Shown here: in pieces, positions 6,472 through 18,132 of the stretch | Layout of the letters: every line of letters begins with the position of its first letter | Numbering within the stretch: position 1 is the first letter of the stretch | Source of the DNA: Clostridiaceae bacterium | GTDB taxonomy: Bacteria; Bacillota; Clostridia; TANB77; CAG-508 | NCBI GenBank assembly: GCA_021771025.1 | Contig: JAETPW010000007.1 | Coordinates: 60,744-124,743 of the forward strand | Direction: 5' to 3' | Length of the DNA: 64,000 bases | The notes under the pieces: generated by a model | The model's database searches: none | The model's input: the letters and a program-made list of their open reading frames with translations, nothing else | Told to the model about the DNA's origin: nothing | Translations under genes and position numbers: made by a program

Positions 6472-9039
6472 ATGTACATTTTTAACCGCATTACTGTTAA
6501 TCCACAATTACCAAAACGAATCGAAAAATTAGCTGAAATTGCTAATAATTTATGGTGGGCGTGGAATTCAGAATTTTTAAGACTATTTAAAAAAATAGAT
6601 AAAGATCTATGGGAGGAATCTGGAAAAAATCCTGTCAAATTTCTCCGTCAAGTTTCTCAAGATCGTCTAGAAGAAGCATCAAAAGACATTCTTTTTTTGC
6701 GTGACTATGATCGCGTAGTAGAAAATTTTGAAGATTATATGAATAGCAAAAACACTTGGTTTGCTAATCGTTATCCAGAAAATAAAAATGACTTAATTGC
6801 TTATTTTTCAGCAGAATATGGCTTAGATGAAACCATTCCCATTTATTCAGGGGGCTTAGGTATTTTATCAGGAGACCATTTAAAATCAGCTAGTGATTTA
6901 GGAATTCCTCTAGTAGCGGTAGGATTATTATATAAAAATGGTTATTTTCATCAAAAAATTGATGGAAATGGTAAACAACAAACCGAATACCATGACATAG
7001 ATTTATACAATATGCCAATTCTTCCGGTAAAGGACGAAAAAGGCGAAGACTTAATGATCTACATCAAATTTCCCAAAAGAAGAATTTATCTAAAAGTATG
7101 GCAAATTAATGTAGGAAGAGTAAAATTATATTTACTTGACTCAGATATCGAAAAAAATAATCCAGAAGATCGTGATGTTACTTTGCGCCTATATGGTGGT
7201 GACCAAGAGATGAGAATCCGCCAAGAAATCGTTTTAGGTATGGGAGGAGTTAATCTACTTACTCGTGCTTTAAAACTAAAACCAACCGTTTATCACATGA
7301 ATGAAGGGCACTCTGCATTTTTAACGTTAGAATTAATCAAAAACATCATCAAAGAAAAAGAAGTTTCCTTTGATTTAGCAAAAGATATCGTTAGTTCAAA
7401 AACAGTATTTACTACTCACACACCAGTACCAGCAGGAAACGATATTTTTCCAATTTCTTTAGTAGAAAAATACTTCAAAGACTTCTGGCCAAGAATTGAC
7501 CTATCTCGTGAAGAATTTTTAAAGATGGGAATGAAACCATGCCAAGATTTAGAACCAGGATTTAATATGGGAATATTAGCCTTAAAAATTGCTGGAAAGA
7601 AAAATGGCGTAAGCAAACTTCATGGAGCAGTATCCAGAGAATTATTTGGAGAAGTTTGGCCAGAGATAGCCGCCAATGAATCACCAATCGGTCATGTTAC
7701 CAATGGAATTCATACTTGTTCATGGCTTGCTCCCAATTTAAAGGCTTTATACAATAAATATTTAATTCCTTATTGGCAAGATAATATTCAACACGATTAT
7801 GTTTGGGAAAAAATCAAAAACATTCCTGATGATAAATTATGGGATGCCCACCAAGATCGCAAAAATAAATTACTAAAAATCGTAAAAGACAACACAACCG
7901 AACGCCTAAGAAGATCAGGCTATCCTTATGAAGAAATAACCTCAATTGTTTCAAAATTAGATCCAAATGCACTAACCATTGGATTTGCCAGAAGATTTGC
8001 TACCTACAAAAGAGCAACCTTGATTTTTAAAGACTTAGAACGAATTACTCAAATCTTAAATAACAGTGATCGTCCAATTCAACTTATCTTTGCTGGAAAA
8101 GCCCATCCTGCTGACAAAGAAGGGCAAGACTTAATCAAATATATCCATGAAGTATCCATGATGCCACAATTTAAAGGCAAAATATTCTTATTGGAAAACT
8201 ACAATATTGCCATGTCACGTTACTTAATCAGTGGGGTAGACGTATGGCTTAACAACCCAAGAAGGCCAATGGAAGCATCAGGAACCAGCGGGCAAAAAGC
8301 ATCTGTCAATGGAGTGTTAAACTTCAGTGTATTAGACGGATGGTGGGCAGAAGGCTATAACCAAGAAAATGGTTGGACCATTGGAACAAACGCCGAATAC
8401 GATTCCTACGAAGCCCAAGACATGGCAGATAGCCAAAGTATGTATCGAACATTAGAAGAAAAAATTGTTCCTGCTTATTATGCCAAAGACAAAAATGGGG
8501 TCTCCCGAAAATGGATCAATTTAATGAAAAACTCAATTATCACCACAGGAGGAAAATACAGCACATCTCGTATGTTAGTTGACTACACAAGAGACCTATA
8601 TATACCTCTATGCAACCTAACCAATGAATACTACGAAAATGTAGACGATGTAGCATCTTATCACGCATGGAAACAAGAAATATACACCAATTGGAAAGAC
8701 ATTAAACTGCATCAAAAAAATAACTTAGACAACATCACCATTGATGCCGGAAATCAAATTGAGGTAAAATGTGAGGTAGAATTACCTAATATTGATCCAG
8801 AACACATCAGTGTGGAATGTTACTATGGAAAAATATTAGAAAATGGAGTAGTAGAAAACGTAACCATCATTCCAATGAATCTAGTAGAAATAAATGAAGA
8901 AACAAAAACGTATGGATACACAACCAAAATAGAACTAAAAACAGGAGGAAACTACGGTTATACCTTCCGCATTATGCCAAAACATGAGATGTTATTAGAA
9001 CCAGCCAATTTAAATTTAATTAAATGGATAACGAAATAG
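6472..9039 (+). CDS. glgP: alpha-glucan (glycogen/maltodextrin) phosphorylase, GT35 family
   Basis: 855 aa; DUF3417-type N-terminus, NEGHSAF motif, and a pyridoxal-phosphate lysine region (FARRFATYKR). Confidence 0.85.
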   Translation: MYIFNRITVNPQLPKRIEKLAEIANNLWWAWNSEFLRLFKKIDKDLWEESGKNPVKFLRQVSQDRLEEASKDILFLRDYDRVVENFEDYMNSKNTWFANRYPENKNDLIAYFSAEYGLDETIPIYSGGLGILSGDHLKSASDLGIPLVAVGLLYKNGYFHQKIDGNGKQQTEYHDIDLYNMPILPVKDEKGEDLMIYIKFPKRRIYLKVWQINVGRVKLYLLDSDIEKNNPEDRDVTLRLYGGDQEMRIRQEIVLGMGGVNLLTRALKLKPTVYHMNEGHSAFLTLELIKNIIKEKEVSFDLAKDIVSSKTVFTTHTPVPAGNDIFPISLVEKYFKDFWPRIDLSREEFLKMGMKPCQDLEPGFNMGILALKIAGKKNGVSKLHGAVSRELFGEVWPEIAANESPIGHVTNGIHTCSWLAPNLKALYNKYLIPYWQDNIQHDYVWEKIKNIPDDKLWDAHQDRKNKLLKIVKDNTTERLRRSGYPYEEITSIVSKLDPNALTIGFARRFATYKRATLIFKDLERITQILNNSDRPIQLIFAGKAHPADKEGQDLIKYIHEVSMMPQFKGKIFLLENYNIAMSRYLISGVDVWLNNPRRPMEASGTSGQKASVNGVLNFSVLDGWWAEGYNQENGWTIGTNAEYDSYEAQDMADSQSMYRTLEEKIVPAYYAKDKNGVSRKWINLMKNSIITTGGKYSTSRMLVDYTRDLYIPLCNLTNEYYENVDDVASYHAWKQEIYTNWKDIKLHQKNNLDNITIDAGNQIEVKCEVELPNIDPEHISVECYYGKILENGVVENVTIIPMNLVEINEETKTYGYTTKIELKTGGNYGYTFRIMPKHEMLLEPANLNLIKWITK

Positions 9040-9100
9040 GGAATAGGGAAAAATTAGCTAGGGAAAAAAGGGGACGCCCCAAACTTCCCTAGCTAAAAAT
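9040..9100. repeat. intergenic repeat family B (nested hairpin with a GGGGACGCCCC core)
   Basis: CTAGGGAAAAAAGGGGACGCCCCAAACTTCCCTAG. Similar copies at 20111-20160, 20701-20750 (reverse), 54842-54892 and 58859-58910, all immediately after stop codons. Confidence 0.7.
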
Positions 9101-9126
9101 TTGATAAAAAAAGAGCCACTAATTGT

Positions 9127-9155
9127 TTGACAAATCTAAAATAGTGTGTTATTAT
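9127..9155 (+). promoter_or_regulatory. near-consensus sigma-A promoter with no downstream ORF (candidate sRNA promoter)
   Basis: TTGACA, 17-nt spacer containing TGn, then TATTAT. Downstream are about 500 bp with no credible CDS, lying between convergent genes. Confidence 0.5.
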
Positions 9156-9662
9156 TGAGTTACAAAATGAATGTGTTTATCTAGTCGTTAGCATTCATAA
9201 AGTGAACGGGTGTGTATTGCAACTACACATCTTTTTATATGCAAAAAAATAGAGCAGAGTGCAACTCTCTACTCCATTCGACTATGTATTGCTACTTTTA
9301 GTCTTTGTTCACTTTTTCATCTTGCATTTGATTTTCTTGTTGTAGCAGAAAGTTTTTTTCCTTTTCTGCTATTACCATATCTATCAAATGAAGAATCACG
9401 TCGTTAGCATTCAATCTGTGAACCCCCTTTCCGCCCTTCAGAAAGGGCTACCTTTCTTAGCGTTAGGTTGGTAATATTTTACAATGTTTTGGTTGAAAAA
9501 TCAAGCGAACATTTATCATATTTTTACTTACATTTTTGTTGGACTTGATTTAAGTTTCTTAGCAAAATGTAATAAGTTAGAGATTATATGGACCTTTCAA
9601 AGAACAAAGTTATTTATTTTTTGGGGCTATATTCAAGAAAATGTGACCATGAATATGATGTA

Positions 9663-10910
9663 CTAGCAAAGGGAATTATCTAAAAATTCCAATTTATGCG
9701 TAAAATCCAAATTGCTCCACGAATCATATTCATATCCAATTGTATAAATATTAGTAGCATCAATATCTTTTTCCAGCAAAATTCTATTGTTTTTATTCAT
9801 ACTTTCATCAGCATATTTCTTCACAGAAGTAATAATTTCCAATTTTGGATTAGCTTTACTTATCTCAGAAATCAAATATTTCCCCTGTTCATTCCAACCT
9901 AAAACACGAGCATAAGGAGTAGTTTTTTTAGCAATTATCATATCCTTTTTATCAATCCCTAACAAAGCATACAATAAAATACGGGTAAGTCTAGTATTAG
10001 CATAACGTTTACTCTGAATAATCGTTAAAAACTCGGTAAGACTATTACAGCTATTAGCTGCATTTTTAATAGCATACTCTAAACCTTCTGAAACATCTGG
10101 CAATTCTGCTATTTCACTTAATGGCATCTTACGTAAAAGATAAATCATTTCCCTTTCGAAAGTAGAAAGGTCAGGAACAATATGACCAATTTTTAATTGA
10201 TCCATTAAAATAGAATAACTACTTTCAGGCATTAACTTAGGAAGAATACGAAATCCATTATTTTTCACAATATTGCGAATAGCGGTACTACTAGCCATAT
10301 TACCATTAACCCCTGTACTATGGTAATCAGCCTCGAAACGCTCTAAACAATAAGGTACAATACTACTCTTTCTTCGTTTTAATGCTTTTAAATATTCGAT
10401 TGCTAAGATATTATTAGGAGAAGAAAGAATGCCAGCATATTTTCGAATATCATTCAGATACATCATTAAAGCATTTTCACGTGCCTTAGGAAAAGAAAGG
10501 CCCTTTTTTAATTCATGAGACAAAATACTTCTATATTCTTTAGGTTCTTGCACTAAAACATCAGCAATTTTACTCAATAACTCCAAATGAGCTGTTTCTG
10601 CACCAAAAGAGAGGGTATCCACAATTTTCAGTGAATCTAAAATTTTAACTCCTCCCTCAGCAAAATTCTCTGCACTAGAAATAGCATATAAAACAGGAAG
10701 TTCAAGAACTAAATCAATGCCACTTGCCAAGGCCATTTTAGCTTTAGACCATTTATCCATCAAAGAAGTAGAACCTCGCTGAGTAAAATTACCACTAATC
10801 ACAGCGATACTATATTTTGAATTCGTTTCTTCCTTTGATTTTTGCAAATGATAATAGTGACCATTATGAAATGGATTATACTCAGCAATAATTCCTAATA
10901 CTTTACTCAT
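9663..10910 (-). CDS. tmcAL: tRNA(Met) cytidine acetate ligase TmcAL (YlbM/UPF0348 nucleotidyltransferase)
   Basis: N-terminal LGIIAEYNPFHNGHYYHLQ with the HxGH nucleotidyltransferase motif; 415 aa. Confidence 0.8.
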   Translation of the reverse strand: MSKVLGIIAEYNPFHNGHYYHLQKSKEETNSKYSIAVISGNFTQRGSTSLMDKWSKAKMALASGIDLVLELPVLYAISSAENFAEGGVKILDSLKIVDTLSFGAETAHLELLSKIADVLVQEPKEYRSILSHELKKGLSFPKARENALMMYLNDIRKYAGILSSPNNILAIEYLKALKRRKSSIVPYCLERFEADYHSTGVNGNMASSTAIRNIVKNNGFRILPKLMPESSYSILMDQLKIGHIVPDLSTFEREMIYLLRKMPLSEIAELPDVSEGLEYAIKNAANSCNSLTEFLTIIQSKRYANTRLTRILLYALLGIDKKDMIIAKKTTPYARVLGWNEQGKYLISEISKANPKLEIITSVKKYADESMNKNNRILLEKDIDATNIYTIGYEYDSWSNLDFTHKLEFLDNSLC

Positions 10911-17244: not shown

Positions 17245-18132
17245 ATGAAATCAAAAGCCCTAAAAATAACCATAGGAATATTACTCATTTTAATTGCCAT
17301 CAGTTTACTCATTGTGGCTTATTTCATGTTTGTCGATATTCAAACCAAAGAGCCTGAAACCGTAAAGCAAAACTACCATCTATCAGTAGAAGAATTTAAA
17401 GGAAGAAAAATATTTACGATTTCTCCCAAAGAGGGAACTACCAATCCAAAAACGATACTGTATTTTCATGGAGGATCCTACGTAGCAGAAGCAACAGACC
17501 AGCATTGGGAATTTATCACTGATTTAGTCAATGATACAAAAGCAAAAGTGATTTTACCCGACTATCCATTAACTCCTAAATACGATTACCAAGACGTGAT
17601 GGACATGGTAATTCCGATGTATGAAAAATTAATTAAGGAAACTGATCCAAATTCTATCATCATGATGGGAGATTCAGCAGGAGGAGGATTAGCCATGGGG
17701 TTAGCAGAAAAATTAGGCGAAAAAGAAATTCCTGTTCCTGGGCAATTAGTCCTTATTTCTCCTTGGTTAGACGTTACCATGAAAAATCCTAATATAGAAG
17801 AAGTTCAAAGCTATGACCATGATTTAAACAAAGAGGCACTAAAAGTAGCAGGGATTGCTTATGCAGGAAAAGAAGGAATGGATGATTATTTTGTTAATCC
17901 CATTCAAGGTCCACTTATTCACTTAAAAAATGTTACTATATTTACGGGAACCTATGACATCTTAAATCCAGATGCAAAAAAATTAGTCAGTCGTGCAAAA
18001 GAGGAAGGAATATCCATCGAATTAAAAGAATACCAAACAGCACCACACATTTGGATCGTAAAAAAGAACAGTCACCCTACAGATCTTGCCAAACAAAGTT
18101 ATGAAGATTTACTAAAAGTGCTTGACAAATAG
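17245..18132 (+). CDS. alpha/beta hydrolase (esterase/lipase, HSL-like)
   Basis: HGGSY oxyanion motif, GDSAGG nucleophile elbow, N-terminal membrane anchor. Confidence 0.75.
   Translation: MKSKALKITIGILLILIAISLLIVAYFMFVDIQTKEPETVKQNYHLSVEEFKGRKIFTISPKEGTTNPKTILYFHGGSYVAEATDQHWEFITDLVNDTKAKVILPDYPLTPKYDYQDVMDMVIPMYEKLIKETDPNSIIMMGDSAGGGLAMGLAEKLGEKEIPVPGQLVLISPWLDVTMKNPNIEEVQSYDHDLNKEALKVAGIAYAGKEGMDDYFVNPIQGPLIHLKNVTIFTGTYDILNPDAKKLVSRAKEEGISIELKEYQTAPHIWIVKKNSHPTDLAKQSYEDLLKVLDK

What the first reader, a model, noticed from the sequence alone, without database searches (positions are those of the whole stretch)
9127..9662. Near-consensus sigma-A promoter (TTGACA-17-TGnTATTAT) driving about 500 nt with no ORF, between convergent genes: a candidate sRNA
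This is the best promoter match in the window, yet nothing of 60 aa or more with an RBS follows. The downstream DNA contains two copies of GTCGTTAGCATTCA(T/A)...GTGAAC, at 9184 and 9404, about 220 nt apart, and a stem CCCTTTC...GAAAGGG at 9424-9447. That suggests a structured noncoding transcript of roughly 270-300 nt.
Basis: seen in the sequence. Interest (0 to 1): 0.5.

Follow-up and report, generated by a model that had tools for sequence, protein, structure and literature searches.

The report
Antisense sRNA plus hidden small-protein gene
The "empty" promoter most likely makes a short (about 76 nt) antisense RNA that blocks translation of an unannotated 38-residue protein gene on the opposite strand; the ~410-bp two-gene cassette is laid out like the par/Fst toxin-antitoxin locus but encodes a new, non-membrane small-protein family found in uncultured gut Clostridia.

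Summary

- **Plus strand:** the promoter at 9127-9155 is followed about 50 nt later by an intrinsic terminator (9208-9232 plus U-tail). This predicts an sRNA of about 76 nt.
- **Minus strand:** a weaker promoter (9504-9476), a structured 5' UTR, a Shine-Dalgarno sequence and a TTG start give a 38-aa ORF (9414-9298) with its own terminator (9279-9247).
- **The "direct repeat":** copy 2 is the ORF's translation-initiation region and copy 1 lies inside the sRNA, so the sRNA is complementary to the start site.

I recovered five divergent lineages of this cassette. All keep the same architecture, but each has its own repeat sequence. Cognate sRNA/start-site duplexes are -29 to -38 kcal/mol, against -9 to -20 for non-cognate pairs.

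The ORF shows coding-type substitutions and in-frame indels. It belongs to an unannotated family of more than 120 small proteins, predicted to be a single soluble helix. The cassette has no conserved neighbours, often sits in or beside mobile elements, and is absent from the closest relative.

Best reading: a par-like type I toxin-antitoxin-type cassette with a non-hydrophobic protein. Toxicity is inferred, not shown. No expression data were available.

The parts
9100..9512 (.). Whole cassette (about 410 bp): the unit conserved between strains and between genomic contexts.
   Evidence: 98-99% identical among strain variants, while the adjacent spacer 9508-9660 is 72-87% identical and the flanking genes are 87-100% per 100-nt bin, mostly 93-100%. 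Homology with L099/L100, which sit in a different context, starts exactly at the -35 box near 9512. L090/L091 diverge to the left of about 9098. An nhmmer profile of the family matches window 9514-9119.
9127..9155 (+). sRNA promoter: TTGACA, 17-nt spacer, TGtTATTAT (extended -10).
   Evidence: 11/12, with TG. The same TTGACA-17-TAT(T/C)AT plus TG is found at the equivalent place, on the strand opposite the ORF, in L101, L102, L105 and L114.
9162..9237 (+). Predicted antisense sRNA, about 76 nt. The ends are inferred from the promoter and terminator, not measured.
   Evidence: The start is placed 7 nt after the -10 box and the end in the U-run after the terminator. Fold is -19 kcal/mol, z -2.6. 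Family members give 74-79 nt.
9179..9207 (+). Direct-repeat copy 1: the target-recognition region of the sRNA, complementary to the ORF's start region.
   Evidence: Predicted duplex with the mRNA start region is -37.6 kcal/mol. Full-length cofold is -104.0 kcal/mol, against -83.4 for the two RNAs folded separately.
9208..9237 (+). sRNA intrinsic terminator (9-bp stem, 7-nt loop, U-run).
   Evidence: RNAalifold gives 13 pairs; the nine pairs of the terminator stem are kept in all 6 sequences (the four outer pairs are each broken in one sequence), 2 pairs carry compensatory changes, and G-U pairs are present on this strand.
9240..9279 (-). mRNA intrinsic terminator (13-bp stem plus U7 tail).
   Evidence: Compensatory changes at several pairs across lineages, and a U-G to U-A change in strains L095-L097. 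Always more stable on the minus strand: -13.4 to -15.9 kcal/mol against -5.9 to -12.6.
9298..9414 (-). Small ORF with a TTG start, 38 aa: MNANDVILHLIDMVIAEKEKNFLLQQENQMQDEKVNKD.
   Evidence: The family was found. Differences by codon position are 103/76/159, with synonymous changes at invariant residues and in-frame indels. N2 and D5, upstream of the alternative GTG start, are conserved. AlphaFold2 predicts a single helix, residues 3-37, pLDDT 88.8.
9395..9423 (-). Direct-repeat copy 2: the translation-initiation region (spacer, TTG start, codons 2-6) bound by the sRNA.
9423..9432 (-). Shine-Dalgarno sequence GGAAAGGGGG, 8 nt upstream of the TTG start.
   Evidence: Read directly from the sequence. 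It becomes AAGGAGG in L099 and L101, and the spacing is 6-8 nt in all lineages.
9433..9448 (-). 5'-UTR hairpin (GCCCUU/AAGGGC) immediately upstream of the SD.
   Evidence: Three of its six pairs switch C-G to U-A in other lineages, and none is broken when the sequences printed are read by eye. In the automatic RNAalifold alignment, a misplaced gap scores a few pairs as broken. The SD-sequestering alternative is the MFE structure in the window.
9450..9468 (-). 5'-proximal hairpin of the mRNA. In other lineages its CCUUUC arm is the predicted anti-SD sequence.
9476..9504 (-). mRNA promoter: TTGATT, 17-nt spacer, TAAAAT (9/12). It is weaker than the sRNA promoter.
   Evidence: The -35 and -10 boxes are conserved while the spacer varies between strains and lineages.
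9241..9469 (-). Predicted small-protein mRNA, about 229 nt. The ends are inferred.
   Evidence: Fold is -64.4 kcal/mol, z -5.0, with 0 of 200 shuffles as stable. The consensus structure has 34 pairs, 10 of them with compensatory changes.

Best explanation
Window 9100-9512 is an autonomous two-gene cassette.

**The two transcripts**
- The minus strand makes an mRNA of about 229 nt for a 38-residue, all-helical, non-membrane protein. Its Shine-Dalgarno sequence tends to be buried in 5'-UTR structure.
- The plus-strand near-consensus promoter makes a convergent sRNA of about 76 nt that ends at its own terminator, back-to-back with the mRNA terminator.

**How they interact**
- About 25 nt around the start codon is repeated, in direct orientation, inside the sRNA gene.
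- The sRNA is therefore complementary to the stretch from just after the SD, through the start codon, to about codon 6.
- Pairing there blocks ribosome loading and possibly also triggers decay.

**What kind of system it is**
- This is the operating principle of the par/Fst type I toxin-antitoxin locus: convergent promoters and direct repeats transcribed in opposite directions.
- I therefore think the cassette is a selfish, addiction-type module in which the small protein is growth-inhibitory when derepressed.

**Shown by sequence and comparison:** the gene structure, the coding status of the ORF, and co-variation of the sRNA with its target.

**Inferred:** the transcript ends, the repression itself, and above all the toxicity of the protein.
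For: **Anatomy in the window.** Promoters and two facing terminators are found where shuffles predict 0.3 terminators. The repeat is unique in the 64 kb. The mRNA fold has z -5.0. Cofolding favours the dimer by about 20 kcal/mol.

**Selection within the species.** The cassette is 98-99% identical between strains. The adjacent spacer is 72-87% identical, and the neighbouring genes are mostly 93-100% per 100-nt bin, dipping to 87-88% in a few phosphorylase bins.

**Coding status of the ORF.**
- L099 differs by 5 synonymous and 3 non-synonymous changes plus an in-frame 9-nt insertion.
- Differences by codon position are 103/76/159.
- 9 representative proteins match at E < 1e-3 in an exhaustive search, and 151 match the family profile.

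**Architecture conserved in five divergent lineages** (window, L101, L102, L105, L114). Each has the sRNA promoter at 11/12 plus TG, both terminators, the SD and the ORF.

**Co-variation of sRNA and target.** Each lineage has a different repeat sequence, but it always matches that lineage's own start region. Cognate duplexes are -28.9 to -37.6 kcal/mol and non-cognate ones -9.1 to -19.9, with no overlap between the two sets.

**Compensatory base changes** occur in the hairpins.

**TA-like ecology.**
- There are no conserved neighbours.
- Cassettes lie next to a serine recombinase, T4SS genes, or a tRNA with an att-like repeat.
- The cassette is absent from the 89%-identical relative L088 and from 80 syntenic loci.
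- L100 is a natural deletion between the two repeats.
- The antisense promoter is consistently stronger than the mRNA promoter, and the start codon is weak (TTG) in several lineages.
Against: - There are no expression data, so the transcript ends and the interaction are predictions.
- The protein is not hydrophobic. Its best 19-residue Kyte-Doolittle window is 0.98, against 2.24 for Fst. It is acidic and strongly conserved in sequence, unlike typical type I toxins as defined in PMC6563280 and PMC7472228.
- No family, defence or phage profile matches it.
- No relative is found in the phage, plasmid or viral collections.
- SD sequestration is only a thermodynamic prediction, and it fails in one of five lineages.
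- Only five independent lineages could be fetched.
Confidence: 0.6

Rival explanations
1. The RNA mechanism is the same (a dedicated antisense sRNA blocks translation of the small ORF), but the protein is not a toxin. It would be a soluble coiled-coil-type regulator or inhibitor that binds a conserved host or mobile-element factor, with the sRNA setting its expression threshold.
For: - The protein is hydrophilic and acidic, and is predicted to be a single long helix.
- It has an unusually conserved core, (I/L)AEKEKNF, with invariant or near-invariant residues spaced in heptads (I7, L10, V/L14, N21, L24). This suggests a specific binding interface rather than membrane insertion.
Against: - There is no conserved partner gene or neighbourhood.
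- Distribution is patchy, even between 89%-identical relatives.
- The layered repression (strong antisense promoter, weak mRNA promoter, TTG start, buried SD) is what is seen for harmful products.
- Nothing positively indicates a regulatory role.
Confidence: 0.3
2. One reading: the promoter at 9127 drives one structured noncoding RNA of 270-300 nt (9160-9470) that contains both repeat copies and the 9424-9447 stem.
For: - The promoter is strong.
- No credible plus-strand ORF follows.
- Some read-through of a 9-bp terminator is possible and would give an RNA fully antisense to the ORF.
Against: - A terminator with a U-run lies 50 nt downstream and is conserved in all lineages.
- 9298-9414 evolves as minus-strand coding sequence.
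- The second hairpin (9247-9279) is much weaker on the plus strand: -6.5 against -15.6 kcal/mol.
- In one RNA, two direct-repeat copies cannot pair with each other.
- There is no Rfam match.
Confidence: 0.05
3. The repeats are DNA-level relics (a duplication or recombination scar) with no RNA function, and the plus-strand promoter is fortuitous or orphaned.
For: Recombination between the repeats does occur in nature: L100.
Against: - The repeat, the promoter and the terminator are all retained in five lineages whose repeat sequences have diverged, yet each stays matched within its own locus.
- The cassette is more conserved than the neighbouring coding genes.
Confidence: 0.03

Closest known systems
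par locus of Enterococcus faecalis pAD1 and its homologues (Fst toxin mRNA RNA I with antitoxin RNA II; Fst/Ldr type I TA family), as described in PMC7472228
   Same: - Convergent promoters give a toxin-type mRNA of about 230 nt and a short sRNA.
[quoted passage not shown]
- A 5' structure is predicted to hide the SD.
- The ORF is about 33-45 codons and often has a non-ATG start.
- It is found both on mobile elements and in core intergenic regions.
   Different: - There is no shared bidirectional terminator. Two separate, unrelated hairpins stand back-to-back and the transcripts barely overlap, if at all, so there is no complementary terminator loop to start the interaction.
- There is one long interrupted repeat rather than DRa and DRb.
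- The protein has no transmembrane helix, no PXXXG motif, no conserved Trp and no Fst Pfam match. It is a hydrophilic, acidic helix with its own conserved motif.
Clostridioides difficile type I TA modules (CD2517.1-RCd8, CD2907.1-RCd9, CD0956.2-RCd10 and others), PMC6563280
   Same: - Clostridial host.
- Previously unannotated small ORFs with convergent antisense RNAs.
- Association with prophages and mobile elements.
   Different: - In the C. difficile systems the genes overlap and share long perfect complementarity, which suggests degradation. Their toxins have a hydrophobic N-terminus and a Lys-rich tail.
- Here the genes do not overlap, pairing is created by a repeat at the start site, and the protein is not hydrophobic.
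Non-membrane type I toxins SymE and RalR of E. coli (from my own knowledge, not checked here)
   Same: They are precedent that an antisense-RNA-repressed 'type I' toxin need not be a membrane peptide.
   Different: They are larger proteins with nuclease-type activity and unrelated gene organisation. No sequence similarity was tested or expected.
Staphylococcus aureus SprA1/SprA1AS (PepA1) (from my own knowledge, not checked here)
   Same: The antitoxin RNA acts on the toxin's translation-initiation region through a part that does not overlap it.
   Different: That pair overlaps at the 3' ends, and the toxin is a membrane peptide of the Fst family.

Membership tests
par/Fst-like type I TA loci (features listed in PMC7472228) | Toxin mRNA and sRNA transcribed from convergent promoters. 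| tested here: met
   Promoters at 9127-9155 (+) and 9504-9476 (-). The plus-strand-type promoter is present in all five lineages.
par/Fst-like type I TA loci (features listed in PMC7472228) | DNA direct repeats crossed in opposite directions, giving sRNA complementarity to the translation-initiation site. | tested here: met
   Repeat at 9179-9207 and 9395-9423. Cognate-specific duplexes in five lineages.
par/Fst-like type I TA loci (features listed in PMC7472228) | Shared bidirectional intrinsic terminator that gives complementary terminator stem-loops. | tested here: not met
   There are two distinct hairpins of unrelated sequence (9208-9232 and 9247-9279), separated by an A/T run, in all lineages.
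par/Fst-like type I TA loci (features listed in PMC7472228) | Intramolecular 5' stem-loop that sequesters the SD (and an upstream helix at the 5' end). | tested here: inconclusive
   The SD is paired in the MFE structure of 4 of 5 lineages, with P(unpaired) 0.11-0.24, against 0.63 in L101. Co-variation supports the neighbouring hairpin at 9433-9448, not the SD helix itself.
par/Fst-like type I TA loci (features listed in PMC7472228) | Toxin with a hydrophobic transmembrane helix, a PXXXG motif or conserved Trp, and a charged C-terminus. | tested here: not met
   The best 19-residue hydropathy window is 0.98, 0.49 and 0.23 in three family members, against 2.24 for Fst. The window protein has no Pro, Gly or Trp. 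No Pfam match was found at E <= 1.
[quoted passage not shown] | Small protein (<60 aa) whose mRNA is base-paired by a dedicated antisense RNA that affects translation or stability. | tested here: met
   Met at the level of sequence prediction and co-variation only. No expression or interaction experiment was possible.
[quoted passage not shown] | The protein is toxic when overproduced, and the RNA neutralises it. | not testable with these tools
   This needs inducible expression with and without the sRNA.
Known RNA families (Rfam 15) | A match to a curated covariance model. | tested here: not met
   The only hit at gathering threshold in the window is a tRNA at 1790-1861. Permissive scans of 8950-9750 gave only chance-level hits.
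Known protein families (Pfam, NCBIfam, PHROGs, PADLOC, PDB sequences) | A significant profile match for the 38-aa protein or its relatives. | tested here: not met
   The only recurring hit is sub-threshold (about 15 bits against a cut-off of 24.8), to the N-terminal 38 positions of GTA_holin_3TM, in 8 of 60 members.

The most novel reading that the evidence does not exclude
This would be the founding example of a type I toxin-antitoxin class whose toxin is a soluble, acidic helix of about 40 residues (probably a coiled coil) that acts on a conserved cytosolic target rather than on the membrane. It would be controlled by a non-overlapping convergent sRNA whose specificity is written in a co-evolving direct repeat, and it would be spread on mobile elements of uncultured gut Clostridia.
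Probability: 0.35. Interest if true: 0.75.

Novelty: new variant of a known kind. Interest (0 to 1): 0.6.

Why it matters
- **Annotation.** It turns an apparently empty intergenic region into two unannotated genes. It also defines a family of more than 120 small proteins that databases list only as hypothetical, often with wrong N-terminal extensions that translate the 5' UTR.
- **RNA biology.** It gives a clean natural example of sRNA-target co-evolution: five lineages, five different recognition sequences, each matching only its own target. That would make a convenient set of orthogonal RNA repressors for Clostridia.
- **If the protein is toxic.** It would extend type I TA systems to a non-membrane helical effector and point to an unknown conserved cellular target.
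- **If the protein is not toxic.** It is still a widespread mobile-element-associated small protein under unusually tight antisense control in gut bacteria.

Tried and rejected
- **Rfam:** gathering and permissive scans of the window and of L088 found nothing relevant.
- **Synteny approach:** 80 loci from GTDB species carrying the neighbouring TmcAL gene (at most 73% identical) hold no trace of the cassette by blastn, tblastn or nhmmer. The 89%-identical relative L088 has an unrelated inverted-repeat element in the same slot.
- **Exact look-up of the 38-aa product:** not on record. Gene callers had only called a 33-aa GTG-start version in one JGI contig. Family conservation of N2 and D5 argues for the TTG start.
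- **Other collections:** IMG/VR, INPHARED phages and PLSDB plasmids gave no relatives.
- **Protein libraries:** Pfam, NCBIfam, PHROGs, PADLOC and PDB sequences gave no significant match.
- **A second direct repeat** (9213-9224 and 9285-9296), considered as a possible extra interaction site, was rejected as chance. A strain substitution at 9217 weakens it, and it is not kept in other lineages.
- **The plus-strand ORFs** of 65 and 60 aa were rejected as non-coding.
- **Literature:** a full-text search for the motif AEKEKNF found nothing.
- **Fold search:** not run on the AlphaFold model, because a single helix gives meaningless structural matches.

Full report
**1. The observation**

The interval lies between two convergent genes:
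- an 855-aa alpha-glucan phosphorylase (6472-9039, +; Pfam DUF3417 plus Phosphorylase);
- a 415-aa HIGH_NTase1/TmcAL-type gene (10910-9663, -).

The consensus scan finds TTGACA-17-TATTAT with an upstream TG at 9127-9155, scoring 11/12. A scan of the whole window shows it is not the best match.
- 12/12 sites lie at 18122 and 44182.
- Sites scoring >=11/12 with TG are rare by chance: 0.29 expected and 3 observed.

The 14-mer GTCGTTAGCATTCA occurs exactly twice in the 64 kb, at 9184 and 9400.
- Chance expectation is 0.22, and no shuffle gave two matches.
- With flanks, the repeat is 29 nt at 79% identity, with 216-nt spacing.

The stem CCCTTTC/GAAAGGG is at 9425-9431 and 9441-9447. Rfam has nothing here.

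**2.

The same scan reports three terminator-like sites where shuffles predict 0.3.
- One lies on the plus strand at 9208-9232, followed by TTTTT, directly after repeat copy 1. The plus-strand transcript is therefore expected to be about 76 nt (9162 to about 9237).
- One lies on the minus strand at 9279-9247 (13 pairs, U7 tail). It faces the first across an A/T run.

Read on the minus strand, the rest of the interval is a gene:
- promoter TTGATT-17-TAAAAT (9504-9476);
- a 5' UTR with two hairpins;
- GGAAAGGGGG (9432-9423);
- 8 nt of spacer, then TTG at 9414;
- a 38-codon ORF ending at 9298;
- the terminator.

Repeat copy 2 (9395-9423) is the spacer, the start codon and codons 2-6 of that ORF. 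An RNA containing copy 1 on the other strand is therefore antisense to the start site: 14 perfect base pairs, a 4-nt internal loop, then 6 more base pairs.

Energetics:
- The 231-nt minus-strand RNA folds with z = -5.0, and the sRNA with z = -2.6.
- The best intermolecular duplex is -41.8 kcal/mol, against -28.6 +/- 3.3 for shuffled sRNAs.
- Cofolding gains about 20 kcal/mol over the separate folds.

**3. Who carries it**

- *Same sequence.* Contigs 100% identical to the window exist in many public runs.
- *Strain variants.* Nine loci (L090-L098), from strains whose TmcAL differs at 5-8 residues, show that the cassette 9100-9507 is 98-99% identical. The spacer between TmcAL and the cassette (9508-9660) is only 72-87% identical and carries non-triplet indels. 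The flanking genes are 87-100% per 100-nt bin, mostly 93-100%.
- *The few changes inside the cassette are informative*:
  - a synonymous AAG to AAA;
  - L23Q and M13I;
  - a G to A that turns a U-G pair of the mRNA terminator into U-A;
  - a change in the sRNA terminator loop.
- *Closest different relative.* L088 (TmcAL 89% identical) keeps the synteny and the phosphorylase terminator, but has an unrelated inverted-repeat element in place of the cassette.
- *More distant relatives.* None of 80 syntenic loci from GTDB species (at most 73% identity) has it.

So the cassette is accessory, and under strong constraint where it is present.

**4. The ORF is a real gene of an unannotated family**

A padded 40-aa query found two proteins: the JGI 33-aa GTG-start call, and a 41-aa protein at 78% identity. 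The locus of the 41-aa protein, L099, lies next to tRNA-Leu, not TmcAL. Homology with the window begins exactly at the -35 box.

Relative to the window, L099 has:
- 5 synonymous and 3 non-synonymous changes;
- an in-frame 9-nt insertion;
- an SD improved to AAGGAGG;
- a C-G to U-A double change in the 5'-UTR hairpin.

Wider searches:
- An exhaustive HMMER search of 1.84 billion representatives gave 9 hits at E < 1e-3.
- A profile search of the 5.8-billion-protein collection gave 151 hits. All are hypothetical and none has a Pfam domain.

The family core is (M/L)(N/T)xxD.I(L/I)xLVDxLIAEKEKNFxLQ, followed by a Q/E/K-rich tail of variable length. Many database entries carry N-terminal extensions that merely translate the 5' UTR, so that the SD reads as 'KGG'.

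Across six lineages:
- differences fall 103/76/159 on codon positions 1/2/3;
- invariant residues show synonymous codon changes;
- all length changes are in-frame.

The protein itself:
- It is hydrophilic (GRAVY -0.66), with net charge -4.
- Its best 19-residue hydropathy window is 0.98, against 2.24 for Fst. The Fst sequence was taken from memory.
- AlphaFold2 gives one helix, residues 3-37, at pLDDT 88.8.
- Conserved I7, L10, V/L14, N21 and L24 fall on a heptad a/d pattern. This is my reading of the alignment and has not been tested.
- There are no significant matches in Pfam, NCBIfam, PHROGs, PADLOC or PDB.

**5. The decisive comparative test**

I fetched DNA for four further family members: L101 (64% identity), L102 (61%), L105-L113 (52%) and L114-L121 (45%). 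All have the same layout:
- -35 box, 5' hairpins and SD;
- TTG or ATG start, ORF, and a conserved GACUA/UAGUC helix;
- the mRNA terminator, an A/T run, and the sRNA terminator;
- a direct repeat of that locus's own start region;
- a conserved short segment;
- the reverse complement of TTGACA-17-TGTTATTAT.

The independent scan finds the 11/12 plus TG promoter and a 9-bp terminator with a U8 tail, on the strand opposite the ORF, in every lineage. In three of the four other lineages the mRNA promoter at the aligned position falls below the scan's threshold, and in L101 only weak offset 9/12 matches lie nearby. The mRNA promoter is thus consistently the weaker of the two.

The repeat sequences differ between lineages:

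| Lineage | Repeat around the start codon |
|---|---|
| window | UUCAC..UGAAUGCUAACGAC |
| L101 | UUUUCGUUGAAUUUAGGCGAC |
| L102 | GGUUAU..CUUGAACAUCGGA |
| L105 | UUA..AAUGACUGUCGG |
| L114 | CUUAG.AUGAC.GCUCAAGA |

Each sRNA matches only its own target. Cognate duplexes are -28.9 to -37.6 kcal/mol (mean -33.3). The 20 non-cognate combinations are -9.1 to -19.9 (mean -14.9), with no overlap between the two sets.

RNAalifold results:
- The sRNA terminator has 13 pairs, 2 of them compensatory.
- The mRNA has 34 pairs, 10 of them with compensatory changes. These cover both 5' hairpins, a short helix within the coding region (codons 6-11), the 3'-UTR helix and the terminator.

The mRNA terminator is always more stable on its assigned strand. 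The SD is predicted to be paired in 4 of 5 lineages. In the other lineages the partner is the 5'-proximal CCUUUC.

**6. Natural deletion and context**

The single metagenome hit, L100, carries the mRNA promoter, the 5' UTR and the start region fused directly to the sRNA's 5' region and promoter. The profile matches positions 7-121 and 348-408, abutting at one point. This is a deletion of the ORF and both terminators by recombination between the two repeat copies.

Neighbourhoods differ in every lineage:
- a serine recombinase;
- T4SS coupling-protein genes;
- HTH and GIY-YIG genes;
- GroEL;
- tRNA-Leu with an att-like partial tRNA repeat.

No relatives occur in IMG/VR, INPHARED or PLSDB.

**7. 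Interpretation**

*Shown:* the gene structure, the coding status of the ORF, the conservation, and the co-variation of the sRNA recognition region with the translation-initiation region.

*Inferred:* the transcript ends, and repression by occlusion of the ribosome-binding region.

The organisation matches the published description of par/Fst loci in three respects (PMC7472228): convergent promoters, direct repeats crossed in opposite directions, and a 5' structure over the SD.

It fails two defining features. There is no shared bidirectional terminator, and the protein is not a hydrophobic Fst-type peptide. It is also unlike the overlapping C. difficile modules (PMC6563280). It therefore works like par but is not a member of the Fst family.

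Several features are the usual signature of a type I TA or addiction cassette:
- the strong antisense promoter paired with a weak mRNA promoter;
- the weak start codon;
- the buried SD;
- the autonomy of the 410-bp unit;
- the patchy distribution;
- the association with mobile elements.

Toxicity of a soluble acidic helix would be unusual and remains an inference. The main rival keeps the RNA mechanism but makes the protein a non-toxic regulator.

**8. Verdict**

I rate this a new variant of a known kind, with interest 0.6.

Noticed in passing
L088:5296-5472 (the same intergenic slot in the closest relative that lacks the cassette): An element of about 180 nt with a near-perfect terminal inverted repeat of about 45 bp. 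Its fold has z -11 on one strand and -16 on the other. It has no Rfam match, promoter or terminator. It could be a MITE-like insertion or a long-hairpin RNA.
   Followed up: partly
L100:3868-4041 (metagenome contig OGFF01009569.1): A collapsed cassette. Recombination between the two direct repeats removed the ORF and both terminators, leaving the two promoters facing each other about 110 nt apart.
   Followed up: yes
L099:150-236 and downstream; L100:4090-4330: In this lineage the cassette sits just downstream of tRNA-Leu(CAA). Between them is a stretch of about 150 nt that ends in a partial copy of a tRNA 3' end (..GTCCCACTTTGGGCAC..). This looks like an attachment-site repeat at the border of an integrated element.
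   Followed up: no
window 9508-9662: The spacer between the TmcAL stop codon and the cassette is hypervariable between strains: 72-87% identity, with 2-nt and 7-nt indels. Everything around it is mostly 93-100% identical per 100-nt bin. No terminator for TmcAL is seen here, so TmcAL transcription may read into the small-protein mRNA.
   Followed up: partly
window 9054-9096: The phosphorylase terminator is a nested palindrome (TTAGCTAGGGAA...TTCCCTAGCTAA around GGGGACGCCCC) with T-runs on both strands, so it could act bidirectionally. All Logan contigs of this species break inside it at 9063, which is probably an assembler artefact.
   Followed up: no
window 18122 (+) and 44182 (+): Two perfect 12/12 sigma-70-type promoter matches, the first with an extended -10 TG. 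Both are better than the flagged promoter. What they drive was not examined.
   Followed up: no
family proteins P0239, P0228, P0226, P0248 and others: 8 of 60 family members give a sub-threshold match (about 15 bits, E about 0.04, cut-off 24.8) to the first 38 positions of Pfam GTA_holin_3TM, which is the part of that profile before the transmembrane segments. One PHROG 'holin' hit has E 0.07. This is too weak to count as evidence but is a possible lead.
   Followed up: partly
L090:4860-4942 and L091 (window equivalent: left of about 9098): In two strain variants the sequence beyond the sRNA promoter is unrelated to the window, so the phosphorylase terminator is not adjacent. This indicates a rearrangement or insertion whose breakpoint coincides with the cassette boundary.
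   Followed up: no
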